IMG/VR virus record: IMGVR_UViG_3300032087_006189 | Direction: 5' to 3' (one strand) | Length of the DNA stretch: 64,000 nt | DNA from: a virus | In this document: positions 46,626 through 59,148 of the stretch, piece by piece | How positions within the stretch are numbered: position 1 is the stretch's first letter | Layout of the letters: each line of letters begins with the position of its first letter | Notes under the pieces: model-generated | What the model was told of the DNA's origin: nothing | The model's input: the letters and a program-made list of their open reading frames with translations, nothing else | The model's database searches: none | Program-made: the position numbers and the translations under genes

Positions 46626-46830
46626 TCAGATTGAAGTTCGACTTTTTGCGAAGGTCGACAAAAATGGCGACGAGTACTTTATTGGTAGCTCGGACGCACC
46701 TGCGCAGATCAACCTTCAAGACGCGACTTTTGTGTTCTTCCTCCCTCCCGAGGGAGAAACGATTGGCGCTCTGAAGATTCGACCCAGAACCCCTCGAAGG
46801 TTCGGTCAAGATGGTGACGGGCCGTCTTAG
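46618..46830 (+). CDS. Hypothetical protein
   Basis: 70 aa; its stop codon falls inside the 5' end of tRNA-Thr. Confidence 0.55.
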   Translation: MADQIEVRLFAKVDKNGDEYFIGSSDAPAQINLQDATFVFFLPPEGETIGALKIRPRTPRRFGQDGDGPS

Positions 46831-46896
46831 CTCAGTTGGTAGAGCATCGGTTTTGTAAACCGACGGTCGACGGTTCAAGTCCGTCAGGCGGCTCCA
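46821..46896 (+). tRNA. trnT: tRNA-Thr(UGU)
   Basis: Cloverleaf; anticodon loop tt-tgt-aa; GGTTCAA T-loop; CCA encoded. Confidence 0.92.
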
Positions 46897-46981
46897 GGAA
46901 GCGTGGCCGAGTGGTTTAAGGCACCGGTCTTGAAAACCGGCGAAGGGAAACCTTCCGTGAGTTCGAATCTCACCGCTTCCG
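46897..46981 (+). tRNA. trnS: tRNA-Ser(UGA)
   Basis: Long variable arm; anticodon loop ct-tga-aa; GTTCGAATC. Confidence 0.92.
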
Positions 46982-46988
46982 CCCTCCA

Positions 46989-47063
46989 TGGGGCGTGGTG
47001 TAATTGGCAACACATCGGTTTTTGGCACCGACGTTCGGGGTTCGAGTCCCTGCGCCCCAGCCA
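46989..47063 (+). tRNA. trnQ: tRNA-Gln(UUG)
   Basis: U1-A72 acceptor stem tggggcg/cgcccca; anticodon ttg; CCA encoded. Confidence 0.9.
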
Positions 47064-47141
47064 AGAGATACGCCTTGCTCTTGGCCTACTGCTCCATGCT
47101 ACCCCCCTTCAAACCTATGGGGCAGTAGGCCAAGGCTTTGC

Positions 47142-47215
47142 AGGCCCGTAGCTCAGTCGGTCAGAGCACCCGGCTCATAACCGGAGGGTCGTCGGTTCGA
47201 GCCCGACCGGGCCTA
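47142..47215 (+). tRNA. tRNA with a CAU anticodon (Ile2-like or elongator Met)
   Basis: Anticodon arm cggctcataaccg resembles Ile2; lacks initiator features. Confidence 0.85.
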
Positions 47216-47231
47216 CTCTTTTGGAGAGAGA

Positions 47232-47378
47232 ATGTACCAAGTAACTGTAGGAAATAAGGTCTTCTTTTCAGAAGACTACGATTGGAGCCTGCCGAAGACG
47301 CTGGCAGCAGCACGAGAATGGGCGGCAAAGAACGCGCCCCAGCAAGAGGTCAAGGTTGGCTTGATCTCCTTCTTGTAG
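47232..47378 (+). CDS. Small hypothetical protein (48 aa) inside the tRNA cluster
   Basis: GGAG SD; MYQVTVGNKVFFSEDYDWSLPKTLAAAREWAAKNAP.... Confidence 0.5.
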   Translation: MYQVTVGNKVFFSEDYDWSLPKTLAAAREWAAKNAPQQEVKVGLISFL

Positions 47379-47384
47379 TGACCT

Positions 47385-47461
47385 GCCTCGATAGCTCAGT
47401 TGGATAGAGCACCGGCCTTCTAAGCCGATGGTCCCAGGTTCGAATCCTGGTCGAGGCGCCA
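47385..47461 (+). tRNA. trnR: tRNA-Arg(UCU)
   Basis: Cloverleaf; anticodon loop ct-tct-aa; CCA encoded. Confidence 0.92.
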
Positions 47462-55371: not shown

Positions 55372-55571
55372 ACAACTACGAGGCCGCGATGATCGCCGAG
55401 GGGGTCATGGAACCCCCCGGCGACACGCCAGAAAAGAGAGAGGCCGCGTACATCGCTGCGTGGCAAAAGCTCATCGACACAGGCCTTGCATGGGAACTGC
55501 AGGGCTGGTTCGGTCGTCGCGCTAAGCAGATGATTGAGGAGGGACTATGCAAGTCCGCACCTCGCACGTAG
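55368..55571 (+). CDS. Small phage protein (AWQKLIDTGLAWELQGWFGR motif)
   Basis: GTGA overlap with the upstream stop. Confidence 0.65.
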   Translation: MNNYEAAMIAEGVMEPPGDTPEKREAAYIAAWQKLIDTGLAWELQGWFGRRAKQMIEEGLCKSAPRT

Positions 55572-55831
55572 TCGCCGTCCTATCACTCACCGCTCTCCCG
55601 GTGCTGTTTCTTATGAGCCGGGTGGAGGACTCTCTCCGAGAGATGCAGGCGAGTGTGGACACGAAGGTCACGCTGGCGCAGGGCAAGGCTTCATACCTGC
55701 CCGGCGCCGCGTGCGTCATTGCAGCTTCGCCAGAACAGACCCCGGCGGACATCGTCAACTTCGCGCGGGCATGCGCGAAGTCACACGAGCTTTGGCTCGA
55801 GGAGAATGCAGATGGACGAGAAGATCGTTGA
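55547..55831 (+). CDS. Small membrane/secreted protein
   Basis: GAGGAGG SD; N-terminal hydrophobic segment. Confidence 0.55.
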   Translation: MQVRTSHVVAVLSLTALPVLFLMSRVEDSLREMQASVDTKVTLAQGKASYLPGAACVIAASPEQTPADIVNFARACAKSHELWLEENADGREDR

Positions 55832-55952
55832 CCGCTGCTGGTCCTGCGGCGGAAACATGGTGGAACGAGAATCTCCGACCATCATCGTGGTCGCCTGTGA
55901 CCGCAAGGGCTGTCCTGCGGTCTACACGAAGAAGAAGAAGCGTAAATCGTAA
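55812..55952 (+). CDS. Small zinc-ribbon protein
   Basis: CWSC...CDRKGC with a basic tail. Confidence 0.5.
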   Translation: MDEKIVDRCWSCGGNMVERESPTIIVVACDRKGCPAVYTKKKKRKS

Positions 55953-55976
55953 AATACACGCGTTTTGCGTCATAAT
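55950..55976 (+). promoter_or_regulatory. Conserved phage promoter driving the ncRNA
   Basis: taaa-N14-cgtcataat, with no SD/ATG downstream. Confidence 0.7.
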
Positions 55977-55982
55977 AGATGT

Positions 55983-56763
55983 AGAGAGAAGGTGTAAGCC
56001 TTCGTGACGCGGAGCCATCAGTTTGGCGCAAGCTCCGTGTGCCGCGCCCCGCTCCCAGCCTCCAGGTGTACCCGGGCTGGGGATCAAGCGGAAAGCTGCT
56101 ACGGCAGTGAGATTGTGTACACCCGGCTGACCCGGCCGTAAGGTAGTGGATCGGATCTACCAGGGCATCTTTTCGGCTGCTCAGCAGCTGCCCCTTCGGG
56201 GGAACGGCCTGTGCTTCGGGCAGCTGCCCCCTTCGGGGGGAACGGGCAACCTCTTGAGCAAGAGGCAAAACTGCTCCCGTCGCGCAAGCTCCGGTCACCC
56301 TTGAGGTGTGAATACGCAAGCGAGGAACAAAGACCGCCCTCGTAAAAACCAGTCTTCGTCCCCTATCCAGTGCGGGGATCGGCCTTCGGGCAAGAACGGG
56401 AGATCGGGCCTAACAAGCCCCCTTCTGGATCCATCTGGGATGAGCGCACAGAGCACCCGAAATAAAGCATGGAGGCGGTAGCGCTCGCTGCAATTCTGCA
56501 GCACCCGGGGCCCTTCGGGGCCCTGGGCCCTCATCTATAAATCCCTCAAACGCTGCGACCAAATGAGGGTGAAAAGGTCGCTCGCTCGTGGTGCAATAAA
56601 CTCTGCTCCCGCCACGAGCTTTCAGCCAATTGGCGAAATGGGGAGCCATACAAAGCCGTCGATCCCGTACGCATTCACGGGGGAGGCTTTTACCACCCGG
56701 GCAGGAATGCGTGCCCATTTACAACCTGAAGGGGGGAGAGCTACCACTCTCCCCCCTTCTTTT
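55983..56763 (+). ncRNA. Large structured non-coding RNA (~780 nt), pseudoknot-rich, family unknown
   Basis: Own promoter and terminator, no credible ORF, dense stems with UUCG/UACG/GNRA loops and several pseudoknots (see findings). Confidence 0.75.
56728..56763 (+). terminator. Intrinsic terminator closing the ncRNA
   Basis: 13-bp stem gaaggggggagag/ctctccccccttc followed by TTTT. Confidence 0.85.
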
Positions 56764-56788
56764 AAATAATGCTTCTTTTAGGCTATAA
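56763..56788 (+). promoter_or_regulatory. Conserved phage promoter (variant)
   Basis: taaa-N14-ggctataa. Confidence 0.55.
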
Positions 56789-56819
56789 GATACTGCAACC
56801 CAACAATAGGAGTACTGAT

Positions 56820-57098
56820 ATGGCCCCAGAAATTGAGTGGTGCGGCGAGATTGATGTTCCTGATGACATCCTGGCAATCGCCAACAAGTACAAAAGCTCG
56901 GTCCTGTTTATGGGGGCGCTGTCCTATCACGGACACCCAAAGTACGCAGAAGAGCTGTGGGAACAGGCTTCGGAAAGCGCGCGTGACCGCATGCTTCGCG
57001 CGGGAGTCCTGAGGGAGTTCCTCAAGACTGGAGACGAGATGGAGAGGACGTACTCAAATGCGTTCTTCATGACGCAGGGCATTGACCTACGGCTCTAA
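56820..57098 (+). CDS. Hypothetical protein
   Basis: AGGAG SD before ATG 56820. Confidence 0.6.
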   Translation: MAPEIEWCGEIDVPDDILAIANKYKSSVLFMGALSYHGHPKYAEELWEQASESARDRMLRAGVLREFLKTGDEMERTYSNAFFMTQGIDLRL

Positions 57099-57122
57099 AA
57101 AACAGCCAATAAACCGCCATAA
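57096..57122 (+). promoter_or_regulatory. Conserved phage promoter
   Basis: taaa-N15-cgccataa. Confidence 0.6.
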
Positions 57123-57159
57123 TATAAATACCCAAGAGAGACATAGTAAGGAGGTCATC

Positions 57160-57633
57160 ATGGGTTTCAGCAAGAGTGACAAGCGCGCCGCCGAGACCTT
57201 CGGCGGAATCTTCACCAACGCGATGACCGCCATGGGCGAAGTCATCGCGAAGGTCCGCGACATCGACATGAACGGACTGGAAAGCTCCGACAAGAAGGAG
57301 GTGCTGCTCGGAGAGCAGCGCGCTCAGGTAGAAATCATGAAGGACACCAACGAGACCGCGATGGGAATCTTTGAGAAGGTTCTGCCGCTGGCTCTCCAGA
57401 TGGGCAACGAGGTGGCGGAGCAGAACCGGCAGCGCTCCAAGGCCCGCATGATGGAAGCAGAGGCCCGCCTCATCGAGGCACGGGCACGCGCGGCCGAGGT
57501 CGAGGTGAAGCGGCTGAATGCCCAGAGCGAGCGCCTCAAGGCGACCCGGCTCCGCGGGTGGGGCGGAGATGTCGCTCCGGACGAGGAGGAGCTTGCAGAG
57601 TACTACACGAGCAAGAAGACCGTGGAGTGCTGA
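57160..57633 (+). CDS. Coiled-coil hypothetical protein
   Basis: AAGGAGGT SD before ATG 57160. Confidence 0.65.
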   Translation: MGFSKSDKRAAETFGGIFTNAMTAMGEVIAKVRDIDMNGLESSDKKEVLLGEQRAQVEIMKDTNETAMGIFEKVLPLALQMGNEVAEQNRQRSKARMMEAEARLIEARARAAEVEVKRLNAQSERLKATRLRGWGGDVAPDEEELAEYYTSKKTVEC

Positions 57634-57642
57634 GTGAAAGGT

Positions 57643-57664
57643 GCGGGCCCCTTCGGGGGCCCGC
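57643..57664. terminator. C(UUCG)G hairpin between convergent genes
   Basis: gcgggcccc-ttcg-ggggcccgc. Confidence 0.7.
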
Positions 57665-57678
57665 CCTCCGTGGGCGAA

Positions 57679-58890
57679 CTATTTAGCTGCCTGTTGGTCC
57701 TTGTAGCGCTTGTACGCAAGTCCTGCTCCGATTCCGCCAAGCCCAAGGGCTCCACCAATCAGCAGCTTCTTACTGATCGGCGACAAGGTTCTTGACGAGG
57801 CTGCCGGAATGGATGCCGGAATGGTTCGAGGGGCCGAGGAAGAGTACTCGATTGTCCCAAGGTTGTCCGCGATCCGCGCCGCATCTGCGGCCACGCTTCG
57901 TCGCGCACGACTACGGGCACTCTCCCCCAGTATCGGCCTCAGTCCGCCTTGAGCGCGCTGCTTCCGCAGCTTATCGACAAAAGTTTCCTGCCGAACCTTT
58001 CCGCCTCGGACTTTCTTCTTTTGTCGGGAGCCGGGCTTTCCATCGCCGAAGGATTCGCGAACGCGCCGCTTGTCTGAATCCATCAGTTTAAAGATGTCGT
58101 CGGACTCCGATGCATTTGGGTAATATCCGCCGGTACCGTACATCTTTCCTTCGGCGGCCAAACGATTAAAGCGTTCTTGATCGTCAACAATGAAGTCTAC
58201 AACCTTCATGTTGCCGCTCGGAGTAATCATCATATTGCCGGGGTGGGCTACTCCGTACCTATGGAGGTAGACATCTCGAAGGTTGTAACCTCCGATGCCG
58301 TTATTCACCAGTTCTCTATTTGCACGTTCCTGGGCCTCCCGCGCAAAATTATCTGCTAGGAAGCTATCATTTCGAGTCCACTTCGGATTGTACGTTTGAG
58401 CGTTGTCGAGATCTTGTCCTTGGACATACTCCTTGAGCATGTAGCCATAGCCGCCGCGGTTTTTTCGGGCCTCCCCCTTGGTGTAGATCTTGCCAAAAGC
58501 GGAGTCCCCCTCCAAGGCCTCTCCTACGCGAACCTTCCGATCTTCTTGACCAGGGACGTAGAGCTTGCCTTGGCGATCATAGGTCTTTCGGATTGCGACT
58601 TGATCTGGCGCATCCTTTGCTCCAATGACCAAGTCTGCGATGCCTTCGGCGCCGCCCGCTATCCTCCCGCGACCCTTGCGTCGGCCCTTTCCTACTTCTC
58701 CGGGATTGACCAGAAAGGTCCCCTCTTCGGAGTTCTTCAAGACACCCGCGGCTTGGAGCTGCTGGGCAAGCTCATTGGCTTCGTCGACCTTTCCCTCTCG
58801 CAAGAGCTTGCGCAGCTCCTTGATCTGGCGAGGAGCTGCAAGTTTGCGCATTTCGGAGGCATAAGCTGTTTTGAGGAGGCCGTATTTCAT
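57679..58890 (-). CDS. Protein-kinase-like enzyme with a SEMRKLAA leader and a C-terminal transmembrane anchor
   Basis: Gly loop IAGGAEG, VAIRK, KEYVQG, D...HPGN, VVDF; C-terminus LLIGGALGLGGIGAGLAYKRYK. Start is probably MKYGLLK. Confidence 0.7.
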   Translation of the reverse strand: MKYGLLKTAYASEMRKLAAPRQIKELRKLLREGKVDEANELAQQLQAAGVLKNSEEGTFLVNPGEVGKGRRKGRGRIAGGAEGIADLVIGAKDAPDQVAIRKTYDRQGKLYVPGQEDRKVRVGEALEGDSAFGKIYTKGEARKNRGGYGYMLKEYVQGQDLDNAQTYNPKWTRNDSFLADNFAREAQERANRELVNNGIGGYNLRDVYLHRYGVAHPGNMMITPSGNMKVVDFIVDDQERFNRLAAEGKMYGTGGYYPNASESDDIFKLMDSDKRRVRESFGDGKPGSRQKKKVRGGKVRQETFVDKLRKQRAQGGLRPILGESARSRARRSVAADAARIADNLGTIEYSSSAPRTIPASIPAASSRTLSPISKKLLIGGALGLGGIGAGLAYKRYKDQQAAK

Positions 58891-59148
58891 AGGTCTTCCA
58901 GGAGGAGTGAATGGACGATTGGTACCCATTGGTCGTGATTGTATACCTTCACGACATCCCCAGCAATCCAAAGGACATCCGCAGAGAGCGGACCATGGGG
59001 ATCTTCTACATTCAGGAAATCGACGACTTTACAGAAGTTGCTGAAATCCTATCACCAGACATGGTTGAGCGCTTTGGCGGCAATCCAAATATCAAGAAGG
59101 TGACTGTATCTCGAAACAGGATGGTTCCCTTCTGGAGGGGCGACGCTC

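What the first reader, a model, noticed from the sequence alone, without database searches (positions are those of the whole stretch)
55950..56763. Standalone ~780-nt pseudoknot-rich non-coding RNA gene with its own phage promoter and terminator
Seen: a consensus phage promoter (55950-55976) is followed by no SD/ATG and no credible ORF, unlike the other copies, and the unit ends in a 13-bp terminator (56728-56763). Much of the interval is paired. Simple stems: gaaggt-GTAA-gccttc (55988-56003), 56007-15/56032-40, ctgc-TACG-gcag, long-range ctcccgt/acgggag (56274/56396) and gagcgc/gcgctc. Six crossing pairings: (1) loop ggtgtac 56065-71 of stem 56054-60/56075-81 with gtacacc 56117-23; (2) H-type cgagg/cctcg plus aagac/gtctt (56321-56356); (3) loop atccag 56365-70 with ctggat 56425-30; (4) H-type ccctca/tgaggg plus gcgacc/ggtcgc (56543-56581); (5) gctcgtgg/ccacgagc plus gctccc/gggagc (56584-56646); (6) kissing loops acgcattc 56669-76 with gaatgcgt 56705-12. 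Established: phages carry large ornate RNAs such as GOLLD and ROOL. I see no tmRNA, RNase P or group I/II intron hallmarks here. Inference: an undescribed large structured RNA expressed with the early genes, possibly a ribozyme, scaffold, or nuclease-resistant decoy against host defence. It could also be two tandem RNAs split near the hairpin at 56504-56527.
Basis: partly seen in the sequence, partly recalled or inferred. Interest (0 to 1): 0.92.

Follow-up and report, generated by a model that had tools for sequence, protein, structure and literature searches.

The report
New pseudoknotted non-coding RNA in phage
A large uncultured phage carries a stand-alone gene for a roughly 785-base folded RNA that matches no known RNA family; base-pair covariation in related phages shows that its conserved parts are real RNA structure, but its function is unknown.

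Summary
Window 55963-56763 (+) is a promoter-to-terminator unit with no conserved ORF and no Rfam match.

I recovered four divergent homologues from metagenome contigs, plus a sixth phage that has unrelated non-coding content at the same locus.

- **Conserved core (56007-56172):** 98.9% of cells pair, against 25-42% for slid controls. Twelve of 37 pairs carry compensatory double changes. Thirteen G·U cells identify the + strand as the RNA.
- **3' tail (56655-56727):**
- **Revised architecture:** the conserved scaffold is only about 350 nt (5' hairpin, core, tail, terminator). Window 56173-56654, about 480 nt, occurs only in three closely related phages. It holds the five cUUCGg hairpins and the two tandem H-type pseudoknots. 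Only two compensatory pairs support it.
- **tRNA-like insert:** one relative carries a 143-nt tRNA-like insert inside this segment, as seen in GOLLD linkers.

Verdict: a genuine new structured RNA family, analogous to GOLLD and ROOL but not a member of either. Expression and function are untested.

The parts
55963..55977 (+). Phage-specific promoter motif TTTTGCGTCATAATA. The -10-like CATAAT is at 55971-55976. The start site is inferred near 55983.
   Evidence: Eight copies of TTTNNNNTCATAATA, all on the + strand, against 0.19 expected. Conserved upstream of the RNA in L009, L011, L012, L018 and L025. It is not a sigma-70 consensus match.
55988..56003 (+). 5'-terminal hairpin GAAGGU-GUAA-GCCUUC with a GNRA loop
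   Evidence: Every homologue, including L025, begins with a 5' hairpin of differing length and sequence.
56007..56172 (+). Conserved pseudoknotted core. Helices: H1 56008-13/56034-39; H2 56014-17/56024-27; H0 56046-49/56163-66; H4 56054-60/56075-81; PK1 56065-71/56117-23; H5 56096-99/56104-07; H6 56124-27/56135-38 (loop UGACCCG); H7 56142-46/56157-61.
   Evidence: Alignment A3 of 5 sequences. Of 37 pairs, 98.9% of cells pair against 25-42% for slid controls, and 12 pairs have changes on both sides. Covariance model R1 finds one copy per phage at 133-200 bits. Coordinates checked.
56173..56654 (+). Clade-specific expansion segment, absent from the short forms L011 and L012. It contains a duplicated submodule (56184-56207 and 56220-56245), five cUUCGg hairpins, the 10-bp hairpin 56504-56527, and two tandem candidate H-type pseudoknots (56543-56581 and 56584-56646).
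   Evidence: Present only in the window, L009 and L018. L018 lacks one copy of the duplication. Two compensatory pairs (A4 columns 71/82 and 93/108), seven wobble-consistent changes and four broken pairs. CTTCGG occurs 5 times against 0.31 expected. L009 carries a tRNA-like insert just after the equivalent of 56504-56527.
56655..56727 (+). Conserved 3' tail. Hairpin T1 is 56664-67/56678-81 and hairpin T2 is 56699-702/56713-16. Their loops are complementary (56669-76 with 56705-12).
   Evidence: The tail aligns in all five sequences (A5). Loop-loop pairing is 8 bp in the window, 6 bp in L018 and L009 with one U-A to C-G double change, and 4-5 bp of different sequence in L012 and L011.
56728..56763 (+). 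Intrinsic terminator: 13-bp G+C-rich stem, 6-nt loop, then a U run
   Evidence: Nearly invariant in all five homologues.
55813..55952 (+). Upstream 46-aa four-cysteine zinc-ribbon-like protein with a basic tail (context only; a possible partner, untested)
   Evidence: It directly precedes the RNA promoter in the window, L009, L012, L018 and L025. It sits one gene away in L011. It is present without the RNA in L032.

Best explanation
This is a stand-alone gene for a structured non-coding RNA in a large uncultured myovirus-like phage.

Shown:
- It has a repeated phage promoter motif, a strong intrinsic terminator and no conserved ORF.
- A ~165-nt core holds seven helices, including a hairpin-loop pseudoknot, all maintained by compensatory mutation.
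- A conserved 3' tail has two hairpins whose loops stay complementary.
- G·U pairs show that the + strand RNA is the folded molecule.

Inferred:
- The RNA acts in trans as a stable, compactly folded molecule. The 5' hairpin, many cUUCGg and GNRA loops, and the terminator hairpin would protect it from degradation.
- The conserved core plus tail form the functional fold, which binds a still unknown protein or RNA partner during infection (scaffold or decoy).
- The ~480-nt middle is an expansion segment that tolerates gain, loss and even a tRNA-like insert.

In architecture and genomic setting it resembles the large ornate phage RNAs GOLLD and ROOL, without being homologous to them.
For: Promoter motif: 8 copies against 0.19 expected, all on the + strand. 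Terminator.

No match to any of 4227 Rfam families, at gathering score or at E<=10. No blastn hit in 50,697 phage records.

Homologues were recovered through flanking genes.

Core covariation: 98.9% of cells paired, 12 of 37 pairs with double changes, and no shuffle reaching the observed score. Slid controls gave 0-2 such pairs. Thirteen G·U cells would be C·A mismatches on the other strand.

Tail and kissing loops are conserved with different sequences.

No shared ORF, and indels that break the reading frame. No Pfam or PHROG hits for ORFs inside the unit.

There is one copy per phage.

A variable middle segment and an embedded tRNA-like element parallel GOLLD's conserved-plus-variable layout with tRNAs in its linker (bioRxiv 10.1101/2024.12.08.627333, read).
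Against: Only five distinct sequences exist, from about three lineages, so the statistics are thin.

The middle 480 nt is known only from three ~90%-identical phages. It shows as many broken pairs (4) as would worry a structure claim.

MFE z-scores are no better than those of coding neighbours.

The locus is dispensable or replaceable. L025 has unrelated non-coding content there, and L032 has a protein gene instead. This fits an accessory role rather than a core one and leaves the function open.

No partner has been identified.
Confidence: 0.72

Rival explanations
1. The unit is a precursor that is cut into two or more independent small RNAs. For example, core plus module B would form one RNA and the pseudoknot and tail part another, rather than one ~785-nt molecule.
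For: In L009 a 143-nt tRNA-like element (Rfam tRNA, 45 bits) sits just after the hairpin equivalent to 56504-56527. RNase P or RNase Z processing there would sever the transcript. Short forms lack the middle entirely. The modules are mosaic between phages.
Against: Hairpin 56504-56527 is not followed by a U run, and there is no internal promoter motif. Core and tail co-occur in all five sequences, in a fixed order, inside one promoter-terminator frame. In GOLLD, embedded tRNAs may stay covalently linked.
Confidence: 0.15
2. The RNA self-assembles into a homo-oligomer, a cage or ring as in GOLLD, ROOL or phi29 pRNA. PK1 and/or the tail kissing loops would act as intermolecular contacts.
For: Covariation cannot tell intramolecular pairing from homomeric intermolecular pairing. 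The RNA has many GNRA loops, a phage setting and a GOLLD-like layout.
Against: There is no homology to GOLLD, ROOL or pRNA. There are no structural data. The loop sequences are not consistently palindromic across homologues.
Confidence: 0.12
3. It is a cis-acting leader or attenuator that controls read-through into the downstream 95-aa gene.
For: In L012 the terminator is followed within about 5 nt by a Shine-Dalgarno sequence and ATG, with no intervening promoter motif.
Against: In the window, L009 and L018 a promoter-like TTTTAGGCTATAAGATA lies between the terminator and the next gene. L011 has a full consensus promoter there. The downstream gene differs between phages. No conserved anti-terminator was seen. 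A length of 350-970 nt is far beyond known leaders.
Confidence: 0.05
4. It is an RNA counter-defence decoy, such as a CRISPR-repeat mimic, a pseudo-antitoxin of a type III toxin-antitoxin system, or a substrate mimic for a host nuclease.
For: It lies in an island of small promoter-terminator cassettes with a Csx16-like gene (PF09652), MazG and a kinase-like gene that hits PD-T4-6. The locus turns over quickly. A 36-nt-spaced duplicated submodule is present.
Against: There are only two partial repeats, and just one in L018. No toxin-like gene lies downstream. No CRISPR repeat or other known target was matched. The conserved part is the pseudoknotted core, not the repeats.
Confidence: 0.1
5. It is non-functional spacer DNA, or decayed genes littered with terminator-like hairpins, or it hides a small protein.
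For: This phage uses cUUCGg hairpins as terminators elsewhere, for example at 57651, 59611 and 63322. MFE z-scores are unremarkable. L009, L018 and L011 have a short ATG/TTG-initiated ORF (MKEEGV...) at the transcript start.
Against: Twelve compensatory pairs in the core. That ORF is absent from the window and L012, where ATG is followed at once by TAG, and its frame breaks after a 1-nt indel. No protein family hits.
Confidence: 0.04

Closest known systems
[quoted passage not shown]
   Same: It is phage-encoded, several hundred nucleotides long, multi-pseudoknotted and of unknown function. It has a conserved region plus a variable region that can hold tRNAs. Here a tRNA-like insert sits in the variable middle of L009.
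   Different: No match to the Rfam model even at E<=10. Here the conserved parts are the 5' core and 3' tail flanking a variable middle, whereas GOLLD has a conserved 3' half. The phage's tRNA cluster is about 8.5 kb away. Oligomerisation is untested.
ROOL RNA (rumen-originating, ornate, large)
   Same: It is a phage or prophage RNA with multiple pseudoknots, no known protein partner and high predicted stability.
   Different: No Rfam match. Sequence and secondary structure are unrelated. This RNA has a much narrower known distribution: five distinct sequences.
phi29 packaging RNA (pRNA)
   Same: It is a phage RNA with its own promoter whose function depends on loop-loop pairing (my own knowledge of the family).
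   Different: No Rfam match. The phage here is a large myovirus-like genome with a baseplate J-like protein, not a phi29-like podovirus. Whether the loop-loop pairs here are intermolecular is unknown.
tmRNA
   Same: Similar scaffold size (about 350 nt), and tandem H-type pseudoknots in the long form.
   Different: ARAGORN and Rfam find no tmRNA, standard or permuted. The window RNA has no T-arm or acceptor. No tag-like reading frame ending in a hydrophobic tail was seen by eye.
UG27 reverse-transcriptase-associated ncRNA arrays in phages (bioRxiv 10.64898/2026.09.22.753630)
   Same: They are phage-encoded pseudoknotted units of about 150-167 nt, with gain and loss of modules.
   Different: No reverse transcriptase gene lies within about 10 kb in any locus, according to the Pfam lists. 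The core is single-copy, not arrayed.

Membership tests
Stand-alone structured ncRNA gene (generic) | Own promoter and terminator, and no conserved ORF | tested here: met
Stand-alone structured ncRNA gene (generic) | Base pairs maintained by compensatory substitutions among homologues | tested here: met
   Core: 12 of 37 pairs with double changes, and 98.9% of cells paired against 25-42% for slid controls. Tail kissing loops. Middle segment: only 2 compensatory pairs.
Stand-alone structured ncRNA gene (generic) | A discrete transcript of the predicted strand and ends | not testable with these tools
GOLLD RNA | Match to the family covariance model | tested here: not met
   No hit at gathering score or at E<=10
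GOLLD RNA | Conserved region plus a variable region that may embed tRNAs | tested here: met
   The layout is analogous only (paper read).
GOLLD / ROOL RNA | Homo-oligomeric nanocage assembly | not testable with these tools
   Needs native gels or cryo-EM.
ROOL RNA | Match to the family covariance model | tested here: not met
tmRNA | tRNA-like acceptor and T-arm domain plus a tag reading frame | tested here: not met
   ARAGORN finds none. No Rfam tmRNA family matches.
Riboswitch / transcription-attenuating leader | The regulated gene lies immediately downstream with no promoter of its own, and the terminator competes with an alternative fold | tested here: inconclusive
   A promoter-like motif follows the terminator in the window, L009, L018 and L011, but not in L012. 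No anti-terminator was identified.
UG27 RT-associated ncRNA array | An adjacent reverse transcriptase with accessory genes, and units repeated in an array | tested here: not met
   No RVT domain appears in the neighbour lists. The core is single-copy.
Type III antitoxin RNA (ToxI-like) | A tandem array of ~34-40-nt repeats followed by an endoribonuclease toxin gene | tested here: not met
   There are two partial repeats, and one in L018. The downstream proteins have no PADLOC hit.

The most novel reading that the evidence does not exclude
This would be the founding member of a new class of large modular phage RNAs. The conserved pseudoknot and kissing loops would be intermolecular contacts that build an RNA-only assembly, as in GOLLD and ROOL. 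Alternatively, the core would be a new RNA fold that captures a host factor or defence protein. In either case the variable middle, including a tRNA-like cargo in one phage, would be displayed or delivered by the scaffold.
Probability: 0.15. Interest if true: 0.85.

Novelty: new variant of a known kind. Interest (0 to 1): 0.62.

Why it matters
Large, independently transcribed, pseudoknot-rich RNAs in phages are rare. GOLLD and ROOL are the known examples, and their biology is still unsolved despite recent cryo-EM structures.

This RNA offers a third, unrelated example. It has a compact ~350-nt minimal form and natural long and short variants, one of which has an embedded tRNA-like element. That gives a tractable comparative system for three questions:
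- what such RNAs do;
- whether a modular conserved scaffold with a variable cargo region is a general design;
- whether they belong to the counter-defence repertoire of phage accessory islands.

The covariance model and alignments made here (A3, A5, R1) are enough to start a wider metagenome search.

Tried and rejected
- **Rfam:** searched at gathering score and at E<=10 on the window and the homologues. The only hits were the five tRNAs upstream and the tRNA-like insert in L009.
- **blastn against INPHARED phages:** no match.
- **IMG/VR scans:** the 430-aa neighbour found no relative, and the 147-aa neighbour found two unrelated phages (L001, L002) that lack the core. Three RNA or terminator patterns found nothing. 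The promoter pattern gave 26 chance hits in AT-rich contigs.
- **The single JGI metagenome scan and the single GTDB genome scan** with a core pattern returned only chance matches in G+C-rich coding DNA.
- **Earlier findings of this scan:** no look-alikes outside this genome.
- **MFE z-scores as evidence of structure:** rejected, because they are no better than coding controls and the minus strand scores equally well.
- **Coding hypotheses:** the minus-strand ORFs of 145 and 102 aa and the + strand ORFs of 45 and 68 aa have no family hits and are not conserved. The leaderless-looking MKEEGV ORF of L009, L018 and L011 is absent from the window and L012.
- **Antisense targets of the conserved H7 loop in the window:** no enrichment, 19 sites against 19.9 expected.
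- **A long-range pairing of the H7 loop with the H1/H2 region:** considered and dropped, because the compensatory change in L018 favours H2.
- **tmRNA, RNase P, intron, retron/UG27 and ToxI readings:** rejected; see the membership tests.

Full report
**What is in the window.** Positions 55963-55977 carry TTTTGCGTCATAATA. This motif, in the looser form TTTNNNNTCATAATA, occurs eight times in the 64-kb window. All eight are on the + strand, against 0.19 expected by chance. The other three copies that I aligned are followed within 20-35 nt by AAGGAG and an ATG. This copy is not. The unit ends in the strongest terminator-like site of the 52-60 kb region: a 13-bp stem at 56728-56759 followed by TTTT.

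The surrounding genome is a large phage. It has a baseplate J-like giant protein, an SNF2 helicase, a DNA ligase and five tRNAs at 46821-47461. The gene neighbouring the unit was seen on contigs up to 155 kb. No whole genome is held for the window.

**Not a known RNA, not a gene.** Rfam 15 (4227 models) gives only the five tRNAs at gathering score. In 55500-57200 at E<=10 it gives nothing but noise. There is no blastn match in 50,697 phage records. ORFs inside the unit have no PHROG or Pfam hit. Three metagenome gene-calling pipelines left the interval empty, or in one case called a spurious minus-strand ORF.

**Homologues.** Searches with the flanking proteins, followed by contig look-ups, gave the following.
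- Three identical copies of the window's unit: L003 to L005.
- L009, identical to L010 over the part L010 covers: 86-94% identity.
- L018: 83% identity overall, but with a strongly diverged core.
- Two short forms: L012 (436 nt; identical in L013 to L017) and L011 (353 nt).
- L025 (identical to L026). It has the same upstream zinc-ribbon gene, promoter and 5' hairpin, but about 650 nt of unrelated non-coding sequence that is thermodynamically very stable. The core model does not hit it.
- L032, which has a protein gene at this position instead.

IMG/VR, the JGI contig collection and the GTDB genomes held no relatives.

**The conserved core is a real pseudoknotted RNA.** I aligned window 56000-56172 with the four homologues (A3). 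I proposed seven helices by eye and counted pairs.
- 98.9% of 178 cells form standard pairs. Sliding the 3' partners by 1-3 columns gives 25-42%.
- 12 of 37 pairs have changes on both sides, against 0-2 in the slid controls and 6.0 +/- 1.5 in shuffles.
- The double changes are spread over H2 (1), H4 (4), the pseudoknot PK1 (3), H6 (1, a C-G to G-C flip) and H7 (3).
- H5 is kept as a hairpin with different sequences, CUGC/GCAG against UGCAC/GUGCA. The alignment is out of register there, so I did not count it.
- L018 has lost both arms of H1 together.
- Thirteen cells are G·U or U·G. These would be mismatches on the complementary strand, so the + strand RNA is the folded molecule.

A covariance model of the core (R1) finds exactly one copy per phage, at 133-200 bits.

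**The 3' tail is also conserved.** Window 56655-56727 aligns with the sequence directly after the core in the short forms (A5). It forms two hairpins, T1 (CCCG/CGGG) and T2.
- In L018 and L009 they pair over 6 bp, with one U-A to C-G double change.
- In L012 and L011 the T2 stem sequence is entirely different (GUGGUGG/UCACCAC). The loops are still complementary over 4-5 bp (CGCC(C)/(G)GGCG).

The terminator is nearly invariant in all five.

**Revised architecture.** The family scaffold is a 5' hairpin, the core, the tail and the terminator, about 350 nt in L011. Every variant starts with a 5' hairpin, though of different length and sequence.

Window 56173-56654 (about 480 nt) is present only in the window, L009 and L018. 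Their flanking genes are 85-96% identical at the DNA level, so these three are one clade. This segment holds all five cUUCGg hairpins (5 against 0.31 expected) and a 36-nt-spaced duplication of which L018 has only one copy. It also holds hairpin 56504-56527 and two tandem H-type pseudoknot candidates.

Its structural support is thin.
- There are two compensatory pairs, seven wobble-consistent changes and four broken pairs.
- Pairings (2), (4) and (5) and the long-range CTCCCGT/ACGGGAG never vary, so they remain untested.
- Crossing 6-bp stems arise by chance about 2.4 times in shuffles of this sequence; 8 were observed, p about 0.04.
- MFE z-scores per module are no better than those of neighbouring genes, and the minus strand scores as well. 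Folding energy is therefore not evidence here.

**Modularity.**
- In L009 a 143-nt element scoring 45 bits against Rfam tRNA is inserted just after the equivalent of hairpin 56504-56527. It has an acceptor stem, a D-arm, a T-arm and a 75-nt expansion of the anticodon arm. ARAGORN does not call it.
- L012 carries an extra 5' module.
- A hairpin with a 4-bp covarying stem and the heptaloop UGRCCCG occurs in three contexts. These are core H6, L012's extra module, and L025's otherwise unrelated RNA. Among the related phage loci it occurs nowhere outside these RNA units.

These features fit a conserved scaffold with exchangeable inserts.

**No coding signal.** The longest ORFs differ in frame and extent between homologues. 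Indels of 1, 2, 7 and 11 nt interrupt any common frame. The one site with three states (T/C/G, in the loop GCAAUAAAC) would be a second codon position giving Y/C/S in the minus-strand ORF. A short ORF at the very start of the L009, L018 and L011 transcripts is replaced by ATG-TAG in the window and L012.

**Comparison with known systems.**
- The closest analogues are GOLLD and ROOL. These are phage or prophage RNAs of 600-800+ nt with many pseudoknots and unknown function. GOLLD has a conserved and a variable region, and tRNAs sometimes sit in its linker (bioRxiv 10.1101/2024.12.08.627333). This RNA shares the setting and the layout. It fails the membership test, with no covariance-model match, so it is a separate family.
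- tmRNA, pRNA, introns and riboswitch families also fail.
- UG27-type ncRNA arrays (bioRxiv 10.64898/2026.09.22.753630) need an adjacent reverse transcriptase and arrayed units. Neither is present.
- A ToxI-like reading fails for lack of a toxin gene and of a true repeat array.

**Most likely mechanism.** The shown facts are an independently terminated transcription unit and a selectively maintained fold. From these I infer a stable, trans-acting folded RNA whose core and tail bind a partner.

The neighbourhood is an island of small promoter-terminator cassettes. It includes a Csx16-like gene, MazG, a two-component pair and a kinase-like protein. Together with the rapid turnover of the locus, this points to an accessory host-takeover or counter-defence role rather than an essential one. 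This last step is inference only.

The 46-aa zinc-ribbon protein with a basic tail lies directly upstream in five of the six RNA-bearing lineages. It is a candidate partner but was not tested.

**Verdict.** This is a genuine, previously undescribed structured RNA family. The core, PK1 and the tail are well supported. The middle 480 nt is weakly supported. Function and expression are open. The scan's other notes on this genome describe the same stretch and its duplicated submodule. No look-alike was noted on other DNA.

Noticed in passing
L009:5577-5719: A tRNA-like element scoring 45 bits against Rfam tRNA. It has an acceptor stem, a D-arm and a T-arm. A 75-nt two-hairpin expansion replaces a normal anticodon loop. 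ARAGORN does not call it. It is embedded inside the ncRNA unit of a sister phage.
   Followed up: partly
L025:2597-3275 (identical in L026): It has the same zinc-ribbon gene, promoter and 5' hairpin as the window, but a different ~650-nt ORF-poor unit with its own terminator. MFE z is -5.5. With the other RNAs it shares only a UGGCCCG-loop hairpin module.
   Followed up: partly
L012:3679-4061 and L012:4287-4714: Two further gene-free gaps upstream of the RNA in the short-form phage fold unusually well (z -4.5 and -4.2). They may be additional non-coding RNAs.
   Followed up: no
window 56124-56138; L012:5200-5214; L025:2937-2951: A recurrent hairpin: a 4-bp stem that covaries (CGGC/GCCG, GGGC/GCCC, GCGC/GCGC) closing the heptaloop UGRCCCG. 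Among the related phage loci it is found only inside these RNA units. It may be a protein-binding or tertiary-contact motif.
   Followed up: partly
window 29069, 48962, 55963, 59656, 61831, 62379, 62875, 63371 (+): Eight copies of the promoter-like motif TTTNNNNTCATAATA, all on the + strand, each heading a small gene cassette. It does not fit the sigma-70 consensus, which suggests a phage-specific recognition factor.
   Followed up: partly
window 55813-55952 (+): A 46-aa four-cysteine zinc-ribbon-like protein with a lysine/arginine tail. Its stop codon (55950-55952) lies about 10 nt upstream of the RNA promoter motif, and its position is conserved in most relatives.
   Followed up: partly
window 57679-58971 (-): A 430-aa kinase-like protein encoded antisense to the cassettes gives weak hits to the PD-T4-6 defence kinase models (best E 4e-6).
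   Followed up: no
window 56774-56794 (+): TTTTAGGCTATAAGATA lies directly after the terminator and resembles the cassette promoter. It probably drives the 95-aa gene. L011 has a full consensus copy at the same place, and L012 has none.
   Followed up: no
L009:4979-5170; L018:5168-5254; L011:492-698: A short ORF (MKEEGV..., 28-68 aa) starts 4-5 nt into the predicted transcript in three relatives. In the window and L012 it is replaced by ATG-TAG.
   Followed up: yes
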